DNA of 45,547 bases from Minisyncoccota bacterium (GTDB lineage Bacteria > Patescibacteriota > Minisyncoccia > Phycocordibacterales > UBA918). Below, piece after piece: positions 3,250 through 45,547 of this stretch. The notes below the pieces were generated by a model. It saw only the letters and a list, made by a program, of their open reading frames with translations, was not told the origin of the DNA and made no database searches. Every line of letters begins with the position of its first letter. Positions within the stretch are counted from its first letter, which is position 1. The translations under genes and the position numbers were made by a program. The stretch covers positions 12,410 to 57,956 of the forward strand of contig JBBDKG010000020.1 of NCBI GenBank assembly GCA_040879435.1. The letters are read 5' to 3'.

Positions 3250-5481
3250 ATGAAATGGGCGCGTTCCTGGATAAAACGACATAAGGAGCTCTTGACCGAC
3301 GTGACGATCGTCGGGTTCGCATTCGCACTCGTCTGTGCCGGCGGGCTTTTTTTGTGGATCTCCACCCTTGAGATACCTGACCTTTCAACCTTTGAGGAGC
3401 GCCGGGTGCTGCAATCCACACGCATCTACGACCGCACCGGGGAGATCCTCCTCTACGACCTCCACCAGGATGTGAAGCGCACGATTGTGCCATACGAGGA
3501 TATCTCCCGACACATCAAGAACGCGACGGTCGCGATCGAAGACGATTCATTCTTTGAGCACTGGGGTGTGCGACCTCTTGCGATCCTTCGCGCCGCACTC
3601 ATAAACCTGCAGGGTGGCGACCTCTTCGGTGGACAAGGTGGTTCCACCATCACCCAGCAAGTAATTAAGAACGCCCTCCTCGAACAGGAAAAGAAAATCA
3701 CCCGCAAGATTAAAGAGGCTATCCTAGCGGTCCGCCTGGAACAGATCCTCACAAAGGACGAGATCCTCGGCCACTACCTGAACGAATCACCGTACGGCGG
3801 TACGATCTATGGTGTTGAAGAAGCAAGTCAGTCATTCTTCGGAAAGTCCGCGGCTGACATCACGCTACCCGAAGCTGCATACCTCGCCGCATTGCCGCAG
3901 GCACCGACATACTTCTCTCCGTACGGAAACAATCGTGAAGCGCTCGCTGCCCGCAAGAACCAGGTACTGCGACAAATGCTTAAGAACGATTTCATCACTG
4001 AAGATGAGTACAACGAAGCTGTCTCGGCGGAAGTTGAGTTCCTTCCCCAGGCGGCGACCGGCATCCGCGCCCCGCACTTCGTCATGTATATTCGAGAGCA
4101 ACTCGCAGAACAGTATGGTGAAGAGTCTCTCTCAGAACGCGGATTCCGTGTCATCACCACCCTTGACTACGAACTGCAGGCAGAGGCTGAACGTATCGTG
4201 AACGAGCATGCGCTCAGCAACGAAACACGATTCAACGCGGAGAACGCAGCGATGGCAGCTGTGGACCCAAATACTGGTGAGATACTGGTGATGGTCGGCT
4301 CGCGCGACTACTTCGATGAGGACATCGACGGCAACTTCAATGCGACACTTGCCGATCGGCAGCCAGGTTCGTCATTCAAACCATTTGTATATGCGTCAGC
4401 ATTTACTGAAGGATATACGCCTCTCACTACCCTTTTTGACGTTCAGACACAGTTCTCCACGACGTGTGAGTCGAACAATTTCACATCCAACGACGGATGC
4501 TATGCGCCATCAAACTACGACGACCGGTTCCGTGGGCCGGTATCGATGAAGAACGCCCTTGCGCAGTCACTGAACATCCCGGCGGTGAAGACCCTCTACC
4601 TTACGGGTGTCAGGGATGCGCTGAAACTTGCACGAGATGTTGGTATCACTACCCTCACCGACCCTGACCGGTACGGCCTCACGCTCGTGCTTGGTGGTGG
4701 TGAAGTTCGACTCCTTGAGATGGTTGGCGCGTATGGGGTGTTTGCAAACGAAGGCGAAAAGCAAAAAATGACCAGTATACTTCGTATCGAGGACAAGAGC
4801 GGGACCATCATTGAGGAGCATGAGCCGAAGGGTGAAAAAGTGTTGGATCGTGAGATAGCACTTCAGATATCAGATATTCTCTCAGACAACGTTGCCCGAA
4901 CACCGCTCTACGGAGCAAACTCACTCCTCTATTTCGGCGGCCGCGATGTTGCTGCAAAGACCGGTACCACCAACAACTATATCGACGCGTGGATCTTGGG
5001 GTATACACCCAATATCGTTGTGGGTGTGTGGGCCGGCAACAACACCCCTGAACCGATGAATCAGATCTCCGGACTCATTGTGACGCCAATGTGGCGGGAG
5101 TTCATGGATGTGGCGCTTGCAAAACTGGACAACGAATCCTTCCCACAACCAGCTGCTGTTCCAAACGACATCAAACCGGTACTCCGTTCAAACGGTTCGG
5201 TGGTCGACTCTGCTGCGCTTGCACAGAACCTCATCGACGCGGACCAGACCGACACTTCAGATATTATCTCAGCACTCTACGACAATACCCATTCGATCCT
5301 TCATTATGTAAACAAAGACGACCCACGTGGTCCATACCCGTCAAATCCAGCAAGTGATGGTCAGTACCGTCTCTGGGAATATGGCGTGACGGCGTGGAAG
5401 TACGGACAGTACGGTGCGCTTGGAAACACCTTCGACAACAACATAGACGAGGACGAGGAGCCCGACCCAGATGACGACTAA
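3250..5481 (+). CDS. Class A penicillin-binding protein (transglycosylase/transpeptidase)
   Basis: N-terminal TM; EDDSFFEHWG, GGSTITQQ and RKIKE transglycosylase motifs; SSFK, SLN and KTG transpeptidase motifs. Confidence 0.95.
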   Translation: MKWARSWIKRHKELLTDVTIVGFAFALVCAGGLFLWISTLEIPDLSTFEERRVLQSTRIYDRTGEILLYDLHQDVKRTIVPYEDISRHIKNATVAIEDDSFFEHWGVRPLAILRAALINLQGGDLFGGQGGSTITQQVIKNALLEQEKKITRKIKEAILAVRLEQILTKDEILGHYLNESPYGGTIYGVEEASQSFFGKSAADITLPEAAYLAALPQAPTYFSPYGNNREALAARKNQVLRQMLKNDFITEDEYNEAVSAEVEFLPQAATGIRAPHFVMYIREQLAEQYGEESLSERGFRVITTLDYELQAEAERIVNEHALSNETRFNAENAAMAAVDPNTGEILVMVGSRDYFDEDIDGNFNATLADRQPGSSFKPFVYASAFTEGYTPLTTLFDVQTQFSTTCESNNFTSNDGCYAPSNYDDRFRGPVSMKNALAQSLNIPAVKTLYLTGVRDALKLARDVGITTLTDPDRYGLTLVLGGGEVRLLEMVGAYGVFANEGEKQKMTSILRIEDKSGTIIEEHEPKGEKVLDREIALQISDILSDNVARTPLYGANSLLYFGGRDVAAKTGTTNNYIDAWILGYTPNIVVGVWAGNNTPEPMNQISGLIVTPMWREFMDVALAKLDNESFPQPAAVPNDIKPVLRSNGSVVDSAALAQNLIDADQTDTSDIISALYDNTHSILHYVNKDDPRGPYPSNPASDGQYRLWEYGVTAWKYGQYGALGNTFDNNIDEDEEPDPDDD

Positions 5482-38404: not shown

Positions 38405-38710
38405 CTACGTGCCCGTGTGCTCTTTCGCACACGCGCTGATGATGCGCGCAAGGTCTGTGTCCATAGAGGTAACTGTGTTCCCAGCGTCATGCGTTGAGAG
38501 TGTGATGTCGACGCGGTTGTATACGTTCGTCCACTCCGGATGGTGACTGATTCGTTCCGCCTCTACGGCTACGGCCATCATGAAGGCGAACGCCGCGTTG
38601 AAGTCCTTGAAGGTGTACGTTGCAAAAAGACGACCGTCAACGAGCGTCCATTTGGGAAGCGTTTCCAGTGCATCGTGTATCTCAGTTTCAGAAAGAGTAT
38701 GAACTGTCAT
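38405..38710 (-). CDS. Pterin-4-alpha-carbinolamine dehydratase-like
   Basis: FKDFNAAFAFM...HHPEWTNVYNRVDITLSTHDAG. Confidence 0.92.
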   Translation of the reverse strand: MTVHTLSETEIHDALETLPKWTLVDGRLFATYTFKDFNAAFAFMMAVAVEAERISHHPEWTNVYNRVDITLSTHDAGNTVTSMDTDLARIISACAKEHTGT

Positions 38711-38762
38711 AGGGTTTAGCATAGCAGACTCTCTCTTAGTTCGGCGTTTTTTCACGGAAATA

Positions 38763-38817
38763 GCAAGGATAATCGTGAAAAGTAGGCAATTTTGCGTGTT
38801 ATTCACGATTATCTTGC
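38763..38817. repeat. Inverted repeat (12-bp perfect arms, 22-bp spacer) at the left edge of the cassette region
   Basis: GATAATCGTGAA (38768-38779) / TTCACGATTATC (38802-38813), extendable with GCAA/TTGC. Confidence 0.8.
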
Positions 38818-38847
38818 CCCTCTGTTATCCAAATGTTACCGACCGCC

Positions 38848-38867
38848 TGGGACGACGTTGGAACTTT
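38848..38867 (+). repeat. Cassette-boundary direct repeat, copy 1
   Basis: TGGGACGACGTTGGAACTTT; NUDIX stop codon at 38869-38871. Confidence 0.85.
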
Positions 38868-38868
38868 G

Positions 38869-39324
38869 TTAGCGATTTGGCCAATCGTACTCTGAATACT
38901 TTTGACCCCTCTCGTACGATTCAATGGCAGCTCGTATATGGCCTATCGTGTTATTCGGAAGCGCCGAAAGCGGAAACCAAGAGAGGTCGTCACATTTGTT
39001 TGGCTCCATGTTGGTCGGCTCTCCCTTCCATGTCCTCGTCGTAAAATAAAAGCCTATTCGTGCATGGGGGTTTCCTGGATCATCACACCATCGATGTTGC
39101 ACTAGCTGGAAGTCTAGATCATTGGCATGAATAGTTATGCCAATTTCCTCTTGTGCTTCTCTCGCAACACCTTCACGCATCGTTTCTCCGTATTCACCAT
39201 GCCCAGCGGGTAGTCCGTAATTGCCGTCTTCCCAACCCGTTTGAAATCGCCTTGATAGAAGTATCTTTTCTTCTTTTATGAGGAGCAGAAATACTTCTGG
39301 AATAATTTTGTAGCGTTCTGACAT
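38869..39324 (-). CDS. NUDIX hydrolase
   Basis: YGLPAGHGEYGE...AREAQEEIG, EPNKCDDLSWF. Confidence 0.9.
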   Translation of the reverse strand: MSERYKIIPEVFLLLIKEEKILLSRRFQTGWEDGNYGLPAGHGEYGETMREGVAREAQEEIGITIHANDLDFQLVQHRWCDDPGNPHARIGFYFTTRTWKGEPTNMEPNKCDDLSWFPLSALPNNTIGHIRAAIESYERGQKYSEYDWPNR

Positions 39325-39463
39325 ACGGCAAGTATATCAAAAGTCCCTCAGCAACTTTTCAGGTTTCAGTTGCCCGCCGTACGTGAAGAAGACGAGCGTT
39401 CCGACTCCCAAAGGTGAGATAGTATTGAACTCCTCTGTGAGATTTTCATGATAGAATTTCTGT

Positions 39464-39769
39464 ATGATCGCATTCAATATCACAAGTATCATCGTTGTGC
39501 TCGCACTTTCTATCTCATTAGTTTATTGGTTCAAGATTTGGAAAAAAGGAACGGATACTAATTTCAAGAAGGGATCGTTTTTGTACGTCGTGTGCTTCAC
39601 GCTCTATGTTGTCGGTCAAACCTCGGCAATTTTACAAAGTAACGGCTTTGTAGAAGGCTGGTACAACCTATCGAGCTACTGCTATGCGTTAGCTGCTTTG
39701 TTATTTGCATTTGGTTCCTATTACCAATACCAGAGTGTAGTTAAAAATACTTCAACCTACATAGAATAG
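39464..39769 (+). CDS. Hypothetical membrane protein (101 aa)
   Basis: Three TM segments; TAGAAT 6 nt before the ATG; AT-rich. Confidence 0.7.
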   Translation: MIAFNITSIIVVLALSISLVYWFKIWKKGTDTNFKKGSFLYVVCFTLYVVGQTSAILQSNGFVEGWYNLSSYCYALAALLFAFGSYYQYQSVVKNTSTYIE

Positions 39770-39838
39770 GGCTACGGCTCTACAGCAAAGACGCCTTTCA
39801 CCAGCTAGCTGACTGGTGGCTCGCGCACATCAAGAAAC

Positions 39839-40384
39839 CTACAAACGATGCAAATGAGCTTCGAGCTTTTTAAGAGCAATACGGCGCATCGAGGTTCCCT
39901 TCTGTTCCTCGGTATCCATCTCGCCCCACGTTTTGGTATGACCTTCCGGAATAAAGATCGGATCCCAACCGAAACCTCGCTCTCCTTTAGGAGTTTCTGC
40001 TATTGAGCCAGCAGCGCTTCCTTCAAATACTTGTAGCGTTTGTCCGTCGTATAAACCGAACATACATTCTGCAAGCGCTGTTCTGTCGCTATATCCATCA
40101 AGCAATTTGCAAAGTCCGGAATTATCAAGTTCACCAAGGAACCATTTAACGAGCGGACCGGGTAATTTACCGAGCGCTTTGAAAATTAAAGAAGTATCTT
40201 CGACCAGCACTACTCCACCAATTTCTTTATGTGCCTCCTTTGCTTTGTGTTCAATAATTTCTTTCAATTCCAAAGACTGTATCTCCGGCAAATCAAGCTT
40301 CGTATGCGCTACCGGGTGATCTAAATGCCGTTCGAGCTGCTCGGCCTTTGCAGCATTTCCGGTGATGAATGTGAGAGCTACCAT
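39839..40384 (-). CDS. Ham1/ITPase family non-canonical purine NTP pyrophosphatase
   Basis: FITGNAAK, LPEIQ, VEDTSL, LPGPLVKWF, FGWDPIF, SMRRIAL; start at ATG 40384. Confidence 0.93.
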   Translation of the reverse strand: MVALTFITGNAAKAEQLERHLDHPVAHTKLDLPEIQSLELKEIIEHKAKEAHKEIGGVVLVEDTSLIFKALGKLPGPLVKWFLGELDNSGLCKLLDGYSDRTALAECMFGLYDGQTLQVFEGSAAGSIAETPKGERGFGWDPIFIPEGHTKTWGEMDTEEQKGTSMRRIALKKLEAHLHRL

Positions 40385-40475
40385 GGTAGTCACTATTCTA
40401 TCGTGTTTACGAGATTTGCTAAACAATCCACTTCAGGCGTTTAGGATCTCTGTCATCTTACGCAACTCGACCCTC

Positions 40476-40495
40476 TGGGACGAAGTCGAAACTAT
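40476..40495 (+). repeat. Cassette-boundary direct repeat, copy 2
   Basis: TGGGACGAAGTCGAAACTAT; contains the stop codon (40492-40494) of the next - strand ORF. Confidence 0.85.
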
Positions 40496-40968
40496 TCTTC
40501 GTCTGTAAGGTCAACGATTAGTACGTCCGGTACAATTCCAAGAGCTTGCGTTACCATAAGTCGCGTGTTACCGCTCATCAGATGATACACTCCGTCTATC
40601 TTCACAATAACAGGCATATCCATTTCAGCACCCAGTTCCATTTTTTGCTTCAAAGCTTCCCAGGCGCGCTTATTCCCTGAATCATCGGACATACCAGCGT
40701 CAACATGCATAGCAACCGTTTCAAAATCTCCCTGTTTCACGTCAGCTGCATCTGTATTGTCAAGTGTCGCTAATAATTCTTGGGTAAGTGGTACGACCGA
40801 TGCGGAAGCAACCCGTTCGTAGAATCGGTGCGTTAGCCCGTGCACATCATTAGGTCGAAATAACTTTGTAACTCGTTCAAGTTCCCCGACTTCTTGAGAG
40901 GATCTAAAGTCTGGCATCACCCACGTTGGAGAATTAGTCACCTCAGGTCTGCTATTGGACTCAAACAT
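40492..40968 (-). CDS. Hypothetical protein with ParB/sulfiredoxin-like motif
   Basis: PVIVKIDGVYHLMSGNTRL resembles the ParB/Srx GxxR motif. Confidence 0.6.
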   Translation of the reverse strand: MFESNSRPEVTNSPTWVMPDFRSSQEVGELERVTKLFRPNDVHGLTHRFYERVASASVVPLTQELLATLDNTDAADVKQGDFETVAMHVDAGMSDDSGNKRAWEALKQKMELGAEMDMPVIVKIDGVYHLMSGNTRLMVTQALGIVPDVLIVDLTDEE

Positions 40969-40998
40969 ACGGACAGTATATCAGGAGCGTTGGCTGTC

Positions 40999-41018
40999 TG
41001 GGACGACGTTGAAACTTT
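40999..41018 (+). repeat. Cassette-boundary direct repeat, copy 3
   Basis: TGGGACGACGTTGAAACTTT; 5 nt from the U-tract of the - strand terminator. Confidence 0.85.
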
Positions 41019-41023
41019 TGTAT

Positions 41024-41347
41024 AAAAAAGAGCCGCCACCAGCAGCTCTATAGAAAAAGATGAGTGGGTTTAGGCTTGGAAGGACTATCTCCCATGTTCA
41101 GACGGAGAGCTTGCGCTCTTCGCCTTACTCGCTCCTCCGTTCAGTCACCTGCCAAGATAGAATATTCACGCACGGAACTCCTATTCTTGGAGAGGAAAGG
41201 CCTGTTCCTTAGGAATCGCCATGTTGGTCTCTCTCCCACTCACCCTGCCTGATTGCAACTTGCTTGCTCTGTGAGACCGAAATCTTTCTTTAACGGAAGG
41301 CTGCTTCTAAGCCAACCGCCTGAGCTAGCAACGGCAGCAAGTTCGAC
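41024..41347 (-). ncRNA. Candidate structured ncRNA (~325 nt), group-I-intron-like core elements
   Basis: Promoter-like TTGTAT-N16-TATAAA (41381-41354), terminator AGAGCUGCU-GGU-GGCGGCUCU-UUUUU, a GCAA tetraloop hairpin and several 8-10 bp long-range complementarities; no convincing ORF. Confidence 0.6.
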
Positions 41348-41392
41348 AAGATATTTATAGCAAAGAATTCCGTTGATACAAACTATGTTGTA

Positions 41393-41412
41393 TGGGACGA
41401 AATTGGAACTTT
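41393..41412 (+). repeat. Cassette-boundary direct repeat, copy 4
   Basis: TGGGACGAAATTGGAACTTT; overlaps the stop codon (41412-41414) of the next - strand ORF. Confidence 0.85.
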
Positions 41413-41885
41413 TATAAGCGCCAACTTTTGAGGGCACCTCTAAACTGAGTTGCCGTGGCAGCATATCCGAATAAGATCAGCCACAGCCAAATATGAGTGT
41501 AGAAATGTAGCAATGAAAAGGTGACCACGAAAGACTGAATTCCAACGTATCCTAGGTGATACCAACCAGCAAAATTAAAACTTCCCTTTTCTCCATACAT
41601 CCAGCTCCCTTTTTCTCGGACTTTTTTGCGATAAATAAAATAAAGGATAATAAAGAGAGTGGTAAGGAGAATACTGGTCCAGAGTAGCCCTTTTTGGGAG
41701 TCAAGAATCTGCACGAGACCATAGTAGACTGCCAACGCATTGAATAGTGGTAAAAATACCGTGTCACCCACAAGACCGGTCACACTTGATGGGAATGCGG
41801 TGCTCTTTGTGGAAATGCGGGTAAAAACAAAAAACGCTGCTGGTCCAAAGAGTATTGTAGCCATGAATGCGAGTACTGTCTCCAT
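41412..41885 (-). CDS. Hypothetical membrane protein (157 aa)
   Basis: About 5 TM segments, AT-rich; TACTAT 6 nt before the ATG. Confidence 0.7.
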   Translation of the reverse strand: METVLAFMATILFGPAAFFVFTRISTKSTAFPSSVTGLVGDTVFLPLFNALAVYYGLVQILDSQKGLLWTSILLTTLFIILYFIYRKKVREKGSWMYGEKGSFNFAGWYHLGYVGIQSFVVTFSLLHFYTHIWLWLILFGYAATATQFRGALKSWRL

Positions 41886-41953
41886 TGCTTGATAGTACCA
41901 CCCTCTTTGGCCGTCTGAGACTCGAACTATCTCAAAAATGGTAAACTACCAGA

Positions 41954-42745
41954 ATGAAAATATACTCGTGGAACGTAAACGGCATTCGCGCGGTGCATCG
42001 AAAGGGTTTGTTTGAGCCATTTATCAAGGAACACCAACCAGATATCCTGTGTCTGCAGGAAACGAAGGCGGAGCAGGACCAATCTCCCGTGGAACTATCC
42101 GAATATGACGAATACTGGCATTCTGCAGAGAAAAAGGGCTATTCCGGCACCGCTATCTTCACCAAAATAGCCCCTGAAAATGCACTATACGGCCTCCCAG
42201 ACGAAGTGAAAGAAGCGTATGACCTCACAGACTCATACGGAGATACGAGTGCCGAAGGGCGCGTAACAACACTTGAATTGGAAGGATTCTTTATAAGTTC
42301 GGTCTATACACCGAACGCAAAGGACGACCTCTCCCGTCTTCCGGTACGACAGCGATGGGACGCTGCGTACCTTGCATACATGAAACAGCTTTCTAAGCAG
42401 AAACCAGTGATATTCTGCGGGGATCTCAATGTGGCACATACGGAACAGGATCTCGCTCGCCCCAAAGAGAACAAAGGGAAGAAAGGATTCACTGAAGAGG
42501 AACGCGATGGCATCGACAGTATGCTTGATGCAGGATTTACGGATAGCTTCCGCTTGTTCCACGAAGGCAATGGACACTACACATGGTGGTCACACTTCGG
42601 TCACGCACGCGAACGGAATGTCGGGTGGCGCATCGACTATGTGATGGTCGCAAAGGATCTGGTGCCTGTGGTGAAGAAAGCGGCGATCCATCCGGATGTA
42701 TTTGGCTCCGACCATTGTCCTGTATCGGTGGAATTAGCGCTCTAA
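41954..42745 (+). CDS. xth: Exodeoxyribonuclease III / AP endonuclease
   Basis: SWNVNGIRA, LQETK, GYSGTA, GDLNVAH, GWRIDY, GSDHCP. Confidence 0.96.
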   Translation: MKIYSWNVNGIRAVHRKGLFEPFIKEHQPDILCLQETKAEQDQSPVELSEYDEYWHSAEKKGYSGTAIFTKIAPENALYGLPDEVKEAYDLTDSYGDTSAEGRVTTLELEGFFISSVYTPNAKDDLSRLPVRQRWDAAYLAYMKQLSKQKPVIFCGDLNVAHTEQDLARPKENKGKKGFTEEERDGIDSMLDAGFTDSFRLFHEGNGHYTWWSHFGHARERNVGWRIDYVMVAKDLVPVVKKAAIHPDVFGSDHCPVSVELAL

Positions 42746-44793: not shown

Positions 44794-45471
44794 ATGAGAG
44801 CATTAGTACAGGAAAGAGAAAAGGCAATTGCTTTGCGTAAGCAGGGGTACAGCTATAAAGAGATTCTTGCAGAGGTGCCAGTGGCAAAGAGCACCCTGTC
44901 ACTGTGGCTTGGTGACCTCCCGTTAACCAAGAATGAAAAGCTGGTACTAAAAGATCGCAAGAATGCAAATATAACTCATGGTCGCATTAAAGCTGCCTCA
45001 GAGTTGCGTAAACGTAGGCTAGAGCGAGAAGCATCATGGCTTGAGGAGGCAAGAGAAACTTTTTTTACACATAAACTTGATCCACTATTCCATACTGGGG
45101 TCGCTTTATACTGGGCGGAAGGTTCAAAACGGGTCAATCAGTGGAGTTTCATGAATTCTGATGAAGAAATGATACTTGTAATGGTCAAATGGTTGCATAG
45201 ATATGGAAAGATCAACACAAACGAGCTGTTTTTTCGTCTGTATGTCCACAAGCCATACGCACATGAAAACTGTGAAGAATGGTGGGCAAAGAAAATCGGC
45301 GTCCGAACAAATCAGTTCCTTAAGACCGTGTATAAACCAACGACGTTGGGGGTGAAGAAACGTCCTAATTATAAAGGTTGCCTGAGAATAGAGGTGCGAA
45401 AAAGCAAAGGTCTGTTATGCAAGATGCGCTTCTGGCAGAACATACTCGTTGAACATTACGCTAAAGGGTAG
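44794..45471 (+). CDS. HTH plus LAGLIDADG-like domain protein
   Basis: N-terminal HTH (AIALRKQGYSYKEI...VAKSTLSLWL), ALYWAEGSK, FMNSD, KGCLRI; more AT-rich; directly upstream of a tRNA. Confidence 0.65.
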   Translation: MRALVQEREKAIALRKQGYSYKEILAEVPVAKSTLSLWLGDLPLTKNEKLVLKDRKNANITHGRIKAASELRKRRLEREASWLEEARETFFTHKLDPLFHTGVALYWAEGSKRVNQWSFMNSDEEMILVMVKWLHRYGKINTNELFFRLYVHKPYAHENCEEWWAKKIGVRTNQFLKTVYKPTTLGVKKRPNYKGCLRIEVRKSKGLLCKMRFWQNILVEHYAKG

Positions 45472-45487
45472 TAGACTGCTCCACACT

Positions 45488-45547
45488 GCACCCGTAGCTC
45501 AACGGATAGAGCACTTGTCTTCGGAACAAGGGGTTGGGGGTTCGAGT
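45488..45547 (+). tRNA. tRNA-Arg(TCG), 3' end cut by the window edge
   Basis: GCACCCG acceptor 5' arm, GCTC/GAGC D-stem, CTTGT-CTTCGGA-ACAAG anticodon arm, GGTTCGAGT T-loop. Confidence 0.93.

What the first reader, a model, noticed from the sequence alone, without database searches (positions are those of the whole stretch)
41024..41347. A cassette whose cargo appears to be a free-standing RNA with group-I-intron-like core elements
Seen (- strand): it lies exactly between repeat copies 3 and 4, has a promoter-like TTGTAT-N16-TATAAA and a terminator whose G-U pairs work only on this strand, and contains AGAGC-GCAA-GCUCU (GNRA loop). Long-range complements include 41061-41068/41235-41242, 41257-41264/41336-41343, 41073-41082/41304-41313 (one mismatch) and a CCAAGA/UCUUGG stem. 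GCAGGUGACUGAACGGAGG and GGGAGAUAGUCC resemble the group I R and S elements: P7-like GACUG (41146-41142)/UAGUC (41087-41083), and a P3-like pairing of AACGGAGG (41141-41134) with CUUCCGUU (41299-41292). Established: group I introns normally interrupt a host gene. No tRNA, rRNA or CDS exons flank this one, and I could not place a canonical P4 or P1. Inference: an exon-less group-I-derived ribozyme or a new RNA class that travels as a cassette.
Basis: partly seen in the sequence, partly recalled or inferred. Interest (0 to 1): 0.85.

Follow-up and report, generated by a model that had tools for sequence, protein, structure and literature searches.

The report
Cassette-borne RNA mimicking 23S rRNA domains
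The gene-less unit encodes a roughly 320-base RNA that is not a group I intron but two miniature copies of protein-binding parts of the large ribosomal RNA, a kind of free-standing ribosome decoy that moves between related tiny bacteria as a gene cassette.

Summary
The group I reading fails. Rfam's group I model finds four introns elsewhere in this genome and nothing here. The proposed P7 is paired in 28.9% of cells across 9 homologues, no better than shuffles. The proposed P3 partner lies in a part that all 9 other loci lack.

The minus strand between two copies of a 21-26-nt cassette repeat carries a promoter-like site, two independently folding modules and an intrinsic terminator.

Module 1 (about 41347-41255) copies the 23S rRNA GTPase-associated centre (H43/H44, the uL11 site). 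It is 46 of 60 identical to the genome's own 23S, and its stems are kept by compensatory changes.

Module 2 (41246-41057) is a shrunken 23S domain I core (E. coli about 213-270 and 366-436), closed by a 12-bp stem that 23S lacks.

Either module also occurs alone, with its own terminator, in related Saccharibacteria-like genomes and metagenomes, often between the same repeats.

The most likely function is a trans-acting decoy for factors that recognise these rRNA domains. That function is inferred, not shown.

The parts
41392..41412 (-). Cassette repeat, upstream copy (reads AAAGTTCCAATTTCGTCCCAT on the - strand)
   Evidence: Family D2, 4 copies in the window. The 18-nt core occurs 12 times in the genome against 0 for the reversed control. 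Copies flank single genes on contigs C15, C16, C20 and C21.
41354..41381 (-). Promoter-like TTGTAT-N16-TATAAA
   Evidence: Read directly. It is below the consensus-scan threshold. Homologous units in G162 and G131 have scan-positive promoters at the same relative place.
41255..41347 (-). Module 1: mimic of the 23S rRNA H42-end/H43/H44 (GTPase-associated centre, uL11-binding domain). The core is 41325-41266. The near-identical stretch is 41322-41284.
   Evidence: 46 of 60 identical to own 23S. 87% identical to E. coli 23S about 1052-1090. Model R1 scores 81 bits. 96.4% of cells paired and 10 of 16 pairs with double changes.
41057..41246 (-). Module 2: miniature 23S domain I core (H12, short H13, H14, GUGA hairpin, GAGUA junction, H22-like and H23-like hairpins), closed by a 12-bp stem (41246-41235 with 41068-41057)
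   Evidence: Mapped on the Rfam LSU alignment of own 23S. 41130-41069 aligns to E. coli 23S about 370-430 and to true 23S of other bacteria at E 4e-7 to 0.001. Covariation. Model R2 scores 159 bits.
41023..41049 (-). Intrinsic terminator (9-bp stem with a G-U pair, then a T run)
   Evidence: Terminator scan. The same element ends the homologues.
40998..41018 (-). Cassette repeat, downstream copy

Best explanation
The unit is a self-contained cassette: repeat, promoter, RNA, terminator, repeat. Its product is a roughly 320-nt non-coding RNA built from two independently folding structural mimics of the 23S rRNA.

Module 1 reproduces the uL11-binding GTPase-associated centre (E. coli 1051-1108). 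It keeps every nucleotide that I recall as forming that domain's tertiary fold: U1060, the 1065-1073 loop with A1067, 1082-1086 UUAAA and A1088. Only the stems and the H44 hexaloop differ.

Module 2 reproduces the multi-helix junction at the core of domain I (H12-H14 and H21-H23). The long peripheral helices are replaced by short capped hairpins, and the ends are clamped by a new stem.

I infer that the RNA acts in trans as a decoy or sponge. It would bind factors that normally recognise these rRNA domains: most likely free uL11 for module 1, and a domain-I-binding ribosomal protein or assembly factor for module 2. That would tune ribosome assembly or activity as an accessory, horizontally moving trait.

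Shown: the anatomy, the rRNA likeness, the covariation, the recurrence of each module as a separate transcription-unit-like cassette, and the sporadic distribution. Inferred: transcription, the binding partners and the physiological effect. My odds are about 0.85 that this is a selected, structured rRNA-mimic RNA and about 0.45 that it works by binding ribosomal proteins.
For: - rRNA likeness. A 373-nt query hits only the own locus and, over 39-40 nt at mostly 88-93%, a stretch that in the own genome and the two relatives checked lies in the 23S gene; 82 of 165 family genomes have a match, a few of them to other parts of the query. 46 of 60 positions match own 23S. E. coli coordinates are.
- Module 1 structure. 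On 3 mimics plus 4 true 23S, 96.4% of cells pair and 10 of 16 pairs have changes on both sides; 0 of 500 shuffles reach these values and slid controls pair in 28-49%. The H43 loop and the UUAAAGA junction are invariant between the focal and G162 mimics and four true 23S. The G093 mimic has a diverged H43 loop.
- Module 2 structure. On 9 homologues, 94.2% of cells pair, 11 of 21 pairs have double changes (27 cells) and 0 of 500 shuffles reach this. All individual MFE folds close the same terminal stem. An H14-like 4-bp pairing sits at the homologous place in 9 of 10 sequences, with compensatory changes in G055 and G039.
- Helix-by-helix correspondence to domain I. The 3' 31-74 nt align to true 23S of 6 diverse bacteria, E 5e-10 to 0.008. 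The metagenome copy mg153 has 22 nt identical to E. coli 23S about 218-239. Model R2 also picked up domain I of a foreign true 23S.
- Independent units. Stand-alone module 1 sits between two repeats in G162 and after a repeat in G093. Stand-alone module 2 occurs in G162, G131, G099, G112, G055, G121, G039 and two metagenome contigs. Scan terminators lie at the 3' ends of the five units scanned (focal, G162 mini, G162 module 2, G093, G131).
- Census. Module 2 is in 8 of 128 genus genomes, module 1 outside 23S in 3 of 128, both in 2 (G000, G162).
- A uL11 gene is present.
Against: - There is no expression or binding evidence.
- The folding energy is only z -1.55.
- Rfam's LSU model did not report the locus even at E<=10.
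- Module 1 has a U-U and an A-A mismatch.
- Its H44 hexaloop (UUUCGG, against GUAACA in 23S) is not conserved among the three mimics. Whatever reads that loop on the ribosome is probably not the target.
- Module 1 rests on only three examples.
- uL11 is not known to me as an RNA-regulated protein (recalled).
- The H12 region of module 2 resembles E. coli-type 23S more than the genus's own 23S. That fits a foreign origin or a foreign target better than a sponge for the cell's own proteins.
- The distribution is sporadic, so the RNA is dispensable.
Confidence: 0.5

Rival explanations
1. The RNA is a decoy for an external ribosome-targeting agent rather than for the cell's own proteins. It would soak up an antibiotic or protein toxin that recognises the GTPase-associated centre or domain I, for example thiopeptides made by Actinobacteria or Firmicutes, or it would target components of the host bacterium. 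That would make it an immunity cassette.
For: It has the same anatomy as the best explanation. Cassette arrays typically carry accessory and immunity traits (recalled). Distribution is sporadic and mobile: three kinds of genomic context. A1067 is kept in the focal and G162 mimics. Module 2 resembles non-CPR 23S at H12.
Against: The H44 loop holds A1095, which thiopeptides need (recalled). It is UUUCGG in the focal RNA and CUGACC in G162; only G093 keeps UAA. I recall no agent that targets the domain I core.
Confidence: 0.17
2. The modules are non-functional relics: pieces of a 23S rRNA gene, possibly foreign, captured in the array and decaying.
For: There is clear sequence similarity to 23S. 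Distribution is sporadic. Thermodynamic stability is only modest.
Against: The order of the modules (1050s region, then 210-440) is not colinear with 23S. Helices are changed by compensatory pairs while junction nucleotides stay invariant across 9-10 diverged copies. Long helices are neatly replaced by UUCG-, GCAA- or GUGA-capped stems. A closing stem absent from 23S covaries. All five units scanned end in a scan terminator and sit behind a promoter-like site.
Confidence: 0.1
3. The RNA is a cis-acting leader or attenuator that controls the gene downstream, like ribosomal-protein leaders.
For: It ends in a terminator on the same strand as the next ORF (40968-40492). In G099, G112 and mg145 module 2 sits upstream of the same FAD-oxidoreductase-like gene.
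Against: Downstream genes differ among loci: an unknown 158-aa ORF, an oxidoreductase, a pterin dehydratase and others. None is a ribosomal protein. In the window a cassette repeat separates the RNA from the next gene. RF00557 finds nothing in the genome. Model R1 finds only the true 23S and the focal locus in the own genome.
Confidence: 0.07
4. The RNA is an exon-less group I-derived ribozyme.
For: Local strings resemble R/S elements, and the focal sequence can draw P3- and P7-like pairs.
Against: RF00028 gives no hit at the locus but four hits elsewhere in the genome. P7 pairs in 28.9% of cells, and 229 of 500 shuffles do as well. The P3 partner is absent from the 9 other module-2 loci. No exons flank the unit. 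Every element is accounted for by the 23S mapping.
Confidence: 0.02
5. The real cargo is a small protein encoded on the opposite (+) strand (62 aa, 41064-41252).
For: Stop-free antisense frames of 52-82 codons occur in all 9 module-2 homologues.
Against: The frames are not unusual for the composition: shuffles reach the observed length in 65-359 of 500 for eight sequences and 15 of 500 for one. The frame through the conserved block differs among homologues. Only the RNA-conserved blocks are alike at the peptide level. The conserved blocks are invariant at all three codon positions. Stem covariation is not explained by coding.
Confidence: 0.03

Closest known systems
23S rRNA GTPase-associated centre (H42-H44, E. 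coli 1051-1108, binding site of uL11)
   Same: Module 1 has the same secondary structure: the 9-nt H43 loop UUAGAAGCA, bulged U1060, UUAAAGA junction and a 6-nt H44 loop. 46 of 60 positions match own 23S.
   Different: It is free-standing, about 90 nt, and closed by an unrelated continuous stem with no kink-turn-like internal loop. The H44 loop sequence differs. It is not part of an rRNA gene.
23S rRNA domain I core (H11-H23)
   Same: Module 2 keeps in order the junction strings GGAAGAGA, GAUUC, GAGUA, GAACAU and AAGCCUAAA, and the helices H12, H13, H14, H22 and H23.
   Different: H15-H20 are deleted and H13 and H21 are shortened. A 12-bp closing stem is added. Total length is 190-280 nt against about 260 nt plus the enclosed helices in 23S.
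Autoregulatory ribosomal-protein leaders that mimic rRNA (L10 leader RF00557; L1 and L20 leaders)
   Same: They share the principle of an RNA copying the rRNA binding site of a ribosomal protein.
   Different: Those are 5' leaders of ribosomal-protein operons and act in cis. This RNA has its own terminator and no ribosomal-protein gene downstream. It lies in a mobile array, and RF00557 finds nothing in the genome. That uL11 is not a known autoregulator is recalled, not tested.
Protein-sponging or mimic sRNAs (6S RNA, CsrB/RsmZ, tmRNA)
   Same: They are trans-acting RNAs that work by imitating another nucleic-acid ligand (recalled concept).
   Different: They imitate different ligands. None imitates rRNA domains, and none is known to me as a cassette cargo.
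Group I introns (RF00028)
   Same: Size range, GNRA-capped hairpins, and local strings resembling R/S.
   Different: No model match, no conserved P3/P7, no exons.
Integron gene cassettes, including ORF-less cassettes
   Same: Arrays of single-gene units are separated by a recurring site. Some units lack an ORF.
   Different: The recurring site is a 21-26-nt direct repeat without the attC hairpin architecture. The units carry their own promoters. No integrase lies beside the arrays; there is one tyrosine recombinase in the whole assembly, on another contig.

Membership tests
Group I intron | Match to the family covariance model (RF00028) | tested here: not met
   No hit in 40400-42000 at E<=10. 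The whole-genome search at E<=1 finds 4 hits on C7, C4, C18 and C5 and none on C20.
Group I intron | Conserved P3-P7 core pairings | tested here: not met
   The proposed P7 pairs in 28.9% of cells in 9 homologues, and 229 of 500 shuffles do as well. The proposed P3 partner lies in module 1, which is absent from the 9 other module-2 loci.
Group I intron | Interrupts a host gene, with exons and a P1 internal guide | tested here: not met
   No tRNA, rRNA or CDS exons flank the unit. It is bounded by cassette repeats, a promoter-like site and a terminator.
Group I intron | Guanosine-dependent self-splicing | not testable with these tools
   Needs an in vitro assay.
Bacterial LSU rRNA gene (RF02541) | Model match and colinear domains | tested here: not met
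   No LSU hit at gathering threshold or at E<=10. The modules are in the order 1050s region then 210-440, and each is closed on itself.
Ribosomal-protein leader (L10_leader RF00557) | Model match and position upstream of the regulated ribosomal-protein gene | tested here: not met
   RF00557 has 0 hits in the genome. The neighbours are not ribosomal proteins.
Integron cassette | attC site (imperfect inverted repeat R''-L''...L'-R', about 55-140 nt) | tested here: not met
   Conservation among the four window copies is limited to about 24 columns. No inverted-repeat arms were reported at the sites.
Integron cassette | Adjacent intI integrase and attI | tested here: inconclusive
   Only one PF00589 gene is present, on contig C3 away from the arrays. 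Three arrays sit at contig ends in a 21-contig assembly.
rRNA-mimic cassette RNA, module 1 type (proposed here) | H43/H44 three-way fold with invariant tertiary nucleotides, outside a 23S gene, with its own terminator | tested here: met
rRNA-mimic cassette RNA, module 2 type (proposed here) | Closing stem, GGAAGAGACC...GAUUC, GUGA hairpin, GAGUA, and GAACAUGGGAG-N6-CUUCCAAGCCUAAA | tested here: met

The most novel reading that the evidence does not exclude
These are the first natural free-standing mimics of ribosomal RNA domains. They would form a mobile family of trans-acting decoy RNAs, exchanged as promoter-bearing cassettes among ultrasmall episymbiotic bacteria. They would titrate ribosomal proteins or ribosome-targeting factors, possibly those of the host bacterium, since parts of module 2 look more like ordinary bacterial 23S than like the carrier's own.
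Probability: 0.35. Interest if true: 0.9.

Novelty: new variant of a known kind. Interest (0 to 1): 0.75.

Why it matters
Until now rRNA mimicry by RNA has been known only in the cis-acting leaders of ribosomal-protein operons. A separately transcribed, modular and horizontally moving mimic would be a new way to act on the ribosome or on what binds it.

- The mimics have been pruned to the nucleotides that matter. They therefore mark natural minimal versions of two rRNA domains: the uL11 site and the domain I junction.
- They show that the repeat-bounded arrays of these genomes carry RNA genes as well as protein genes.
- They give a directly testable handle on ribosome regulation in organisms that are very hard to grow.

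Tried and rejected
- Rfam at gathering threshold over the window and at E<=10 over 40400-42000 gave only a cut tRNA at 45488 and two chance snoRNA-like hits.
- RNase P RNA was considered for module 2 and rejected, because the genome's RNase P RNA is on C10. L10_leader has no hit.
- The phage collection returned only 23S-bearing records. The module-2 pattern is absent from viral contigs.
- A class-wide pattern search of 401 genomes gave, besides the own locus, only hits with AAGGCTAAA that I take for true 23S. The RNA was therefore not found outside genus g1 in those searched.
- Of 99 exact-pattern hits in genome and metagenome contigs, 88 are true 23S by their downstream CCGATAGTGAAC, and 3 more look like 23S variants.
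- Low-scoring R1 hits: L111-L115, L117 and L120 are true or foreign 23S. L116 shows only short weak collinear matches to 23S and was left unclassified. L118 was judged spurious by eye.
- Sequencing runs: no RNA holder is listed. The only holder is a DNA run that may be the source sample.
- Literature: six searches, of which I saw only the listings and abstract starts. I read passages of PMC9935924 with the find mode. None describes free-standing rRNA-mimic RNAs or these repeats. This is not proof that none is in print. Supplements were not consulted.
- I tried to name the protein partner of module 2 from the literature and failed. bL28, bL34 and uL15 are recalled guesses only.
- The 21-nt repeat core also occurs inside a methyltransferase-like ORF of four high-GC IMG/VR contigs. 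I treat this as coincidence.

Full report
SETTING. The window is contig C20:12410-57956 of a 761-kb, 21-contig genome. Related records are labelled Candidatus Saccharibacteria or Paceibacteria. From about 38.8 to 41.4 kb the G+C content drops from about 0.53 to 0.45. Four copies of a direct repeat lie at 38847, 40475, 40998 and 41392. Its 18-nt core AGTTYCRAYNTCGTCCCA occurs 12 times in the genome, against 0 for the reversed control. The copies cluster on C15, C16, C20 and C21, three of these clusters near contig ends, and they separate single genes of unrelated function. Conservation around the copies is limited to about 24-26 nt. The unit 41019-41391 is the only one in the window without a plausible ORF.

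THE OBSERVATION. The terminator is found independently by the scan at 41049-41029 on the - strand. The TTGTAT-N16-TATAAA site is below that scan's threshold. The - strand folds slightly better than shuffles (z -1.55) and the + strand does not (z -0.10). In the minimum-energy fold the RNA splits into two closed domains plus the terminator.

NOT A GROUP I INTRON. Rfam reports nothing at the locus at gathering score, or at E<=10 on a 1.6-kb slice. As a positive control, RF00028 finds four matches elsewhere in this genome: C7 at 74.3 bits, then C4, C18 and C5. It finds none on C20. On an alignment of 9 homologues the proposed P7 (GACUG/UAGUC) is paired in 28.9% of cells, and 229 of 500 shuffles do as well. 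The proposed P3 pairs module 2 with module 1, yet the 9 other module-2 loci lack module 1.

WHAT IT IS, MODULE 1. A search of 165 family genomes with the 373-nt unit gave matches in 82. Nearly all were a single 39-40-nt stretch at mostly 88-93% identity to query positions 69-108. In the own genome and two relatives that stretch lies inside the 23S rRNA gene. The local alignment to own 23S is 46 of 60 identical. Against E. coli 23S it is 87% identical over about 1052-1090, where the record's numbering appears to run one below the standard. This is H43/H44, the GTPase-associated centre. That it is the uL11-binding domain, and which nucleotides make its tertiary fold, I recall rather than tested.

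Aligned with true 23S, the focal RNA keeps the 9-nt H43 loop, the bulged U, the UUAAAGA junction and the 6-nt H44 loop size. The three helices are maintained by compensatory changes. A covariance model of the domain (R1) run on 128 genus genomes found true 23S in most hit genomes. After I checked the flanks of the low-scoring hits, it left three non-rRNA copies. These are the focal one (81 bits), G162:C54:2181-2270 (77 bits) and G093:C2:114949-115036 (21.6 bits).

The G162 copy is a 190-bp unit lying exactly between two repeat copies, with a scan-positive promoter and terminator. The G093 copy follows a repeat variant and ends in a scan terminator. Across the three mimics and four true 23S, 96.4% of cells pair and 10 of 16 pairs have changes on both sides. 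No shuffle (0 of 500) reaches these values. The H44 loop differs in all three mimics. Two non-canonical pairs occur in the focal copy.

WHAT IT IS, MODULE 2. The same family search gave weaker hits to query positions 149-191 and 255-333 in four genomes. Those loci hold RNAs homologous to the second half only. Each sits behind a promoter-like site and ends in a stem-loop and T run; a scan confirmed the terminator in the two that I scanned, G162 and G131.

More copies came from several searches:
- a pattern search found 7 of 165 family genomes, all in genus g1;
- exact-pattern scans of genome and metagenome contigs gave 99 hits, of which 88 are true 23S and 8 are module-2 RNAs, including two new sequences, mg145 and mg153;
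- model R2 found 8 of 128 genus genomes, plus one hit that lies in domain I of a foreign true 23S.

The Rfam alignment of the genome's own 23S shows what module 2 copies. In order these are the junction AGGAAAAGAAA, H12, GAUUCC and H13, the 5' strand of H14, a hairpin at the place of GGGUGAUAGUCCC, GAGUA, H22, GAAUCU, H23, and AAGGCUAAAUA with the 3' strand of H14. H15-H20 are missing and H13 is cut down; in mg153 it is a UUCG-capped stem. The 3' 31-74 nt align to true 23S of six diverse bacteria at E 5e-10 to 0.008, with the caveat that those six were picked by the pattern. They align to E. coli at about 370-430. The 5' block of mg153 is identical over 22 nt to E. coli 23S about 218-239.

A 12-bp stem that has no counterpart in 23S closes the module. 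On 9 homologues this stem, the GUGA hairpin and H23 are 94.2% paired, with 11 of 21 pairs changed on both sides (27 cells). No shuffle (0 of 500) reaches this, and slid controls pair in 36-62% of cells. An H14-type 4-bp pairing is available at the homologous place in 9 of 10 sequences. It has compensatory changes in G055 (UGGC/GCCA) and G039 (AGUU/GACU), and G121 has a mismatch.

NOT CODING. Antisense stop-free frames exist in all 9 module-2 homologues. Shuffles reach their length in 65-359 of 500 cases for eight sequences and 15 of 500 for one. The frames differ between homologues, and only the RNA-conserved blocks are shared at the peptide level.

CONTEXT AND MOBILITY. Units lie between repeats in the window, in G162 (module 1), in mg153 and, upstream only, in G131 and G093. 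In G099, G112 and mg145 module 2 sits upstream of an FAD-oxidoreductase-like gene. In G039 it sits between rpsI and a pterin-4a-carbinolamine dehydratase gene. That is the same kind of gene that borders the array in the window. Only the focal locus fuses the two modules. G162 carries both about 1.4 kb apart on one strand. The genome has one tyrosine recombinase, which is not beside any array.

MECHANISM. What is kept is the set of junction and loop nucleotides that define the two rRNA folds. What is discarded is peripheral, and the ends are clamped. That is the pattern expected of an RNA selected to present these folds to something that reads them. I therefore propose a trans-acting decoy. uL11 is present in the genome and is the obvious candidate for module 1. 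The partner of module 2 is unknown.

The main alternatives are a decoy for an external antibiotic or toxin, a relic, a cis leader, an antisense peptide and a ribozyme. They are weighed in the Rival explanations section. Points against my reading are the lack of any expression or binding data, the unconserved H44 loop, only three module-1 examples, the modest folding z-score, and the better resemblance of module 2's H12 region to E. coli-type 23S than to the genus's own.

NOVELTY. I found no description of such RNAs in six full-text searches, of which I read listings only, plus passages of one paper. I also found no Rfam family. The principle of rRNA mimicry is known from ribosomal-protein leaders. 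A free-standing, modular, cassette-borne form is new to me.

Noticed in passing
window 38847-41412; genome contigs C15:14683-15530, C16:604-3972, C21:8983-9000: Arrays of single-gene units are separated by a 21-26-nt direct repeat (AAAGTTCCAACTTCGTCCCAGAC..CC). The core occurs 12 times in the genome, often at contig ends. Cargo includes NUDIX, Ham1, MazG-like, isochorismatase-like and methyltransferase-like genes. No integrase is adjacent. This looks like an unrecognised cassette system.
   Followed up: partly
genome C7:34293-34530, C4:17312-17555, C18:1013-1228, C5:672-891: Four matches to the Rfam group I intron model lie elsewhere in the genome, at 74, 42, 35 and 30 bits. I did not look at their host genes.
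   Followed up: no
genome C11:20696-20939 (own 23S): The genome's 23S gene has about 243 extra bases relative to the 23S of relative G095, at about position 1830-1845 of that gene. This could be an insertion or an intron.
   Followed up: no
genome C18:1518-1560: A 45-nt stretch is 89% identical, in opposite orientation, to the sequence just at the 5' end of the 23S gene on C11.
   Followed up: no
L029 (G162:C54) reverse-complement coordinates about 3623-4560: About 900 bases of the same array, between the module-1 unit and the next ORF, have no ORF of 70 aa or more. A terminator-like hairpin faces the other way. This may be another non-coding cargo.
   Followed up: no
L190-L193 (IMG/VR contigs): The 21-nt repeat core occurs once in each of four related high-GC viral contigs, inside an ORF that looks like a DNA cytosine methyltransferase. 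On that strand it reads W-D-D-V-G-T-F. This is probably coincidence.
   Followed up: partly
L186 (G039:C2) 303-2124; window 38405-38806: In G039 the module-2 RNA lies between rplQ-rplM-rpsI and a pterin-4a-carbinolamine dehydratase gene. In the window the same kind of gene borders the cassette array. This suggests a shared insertion hot spot.
   Followed up: partly
window 41304-41313 and 41073-41082 (- strand): The H43 loop region of module 1 (GGCUUAGAAG) is complementary in 9 of 10 positions to CUUCCAAGCC of module 2. The same would hold for the H43 loop of any true 23S. I treated this as chance.
   Followed up: partly
window 45488-45547 and 44794-45471: A tRNA gene is cut by the window end. 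It is preceded by a 225-aa ORF with a weak HTH match.
   Followed up: no
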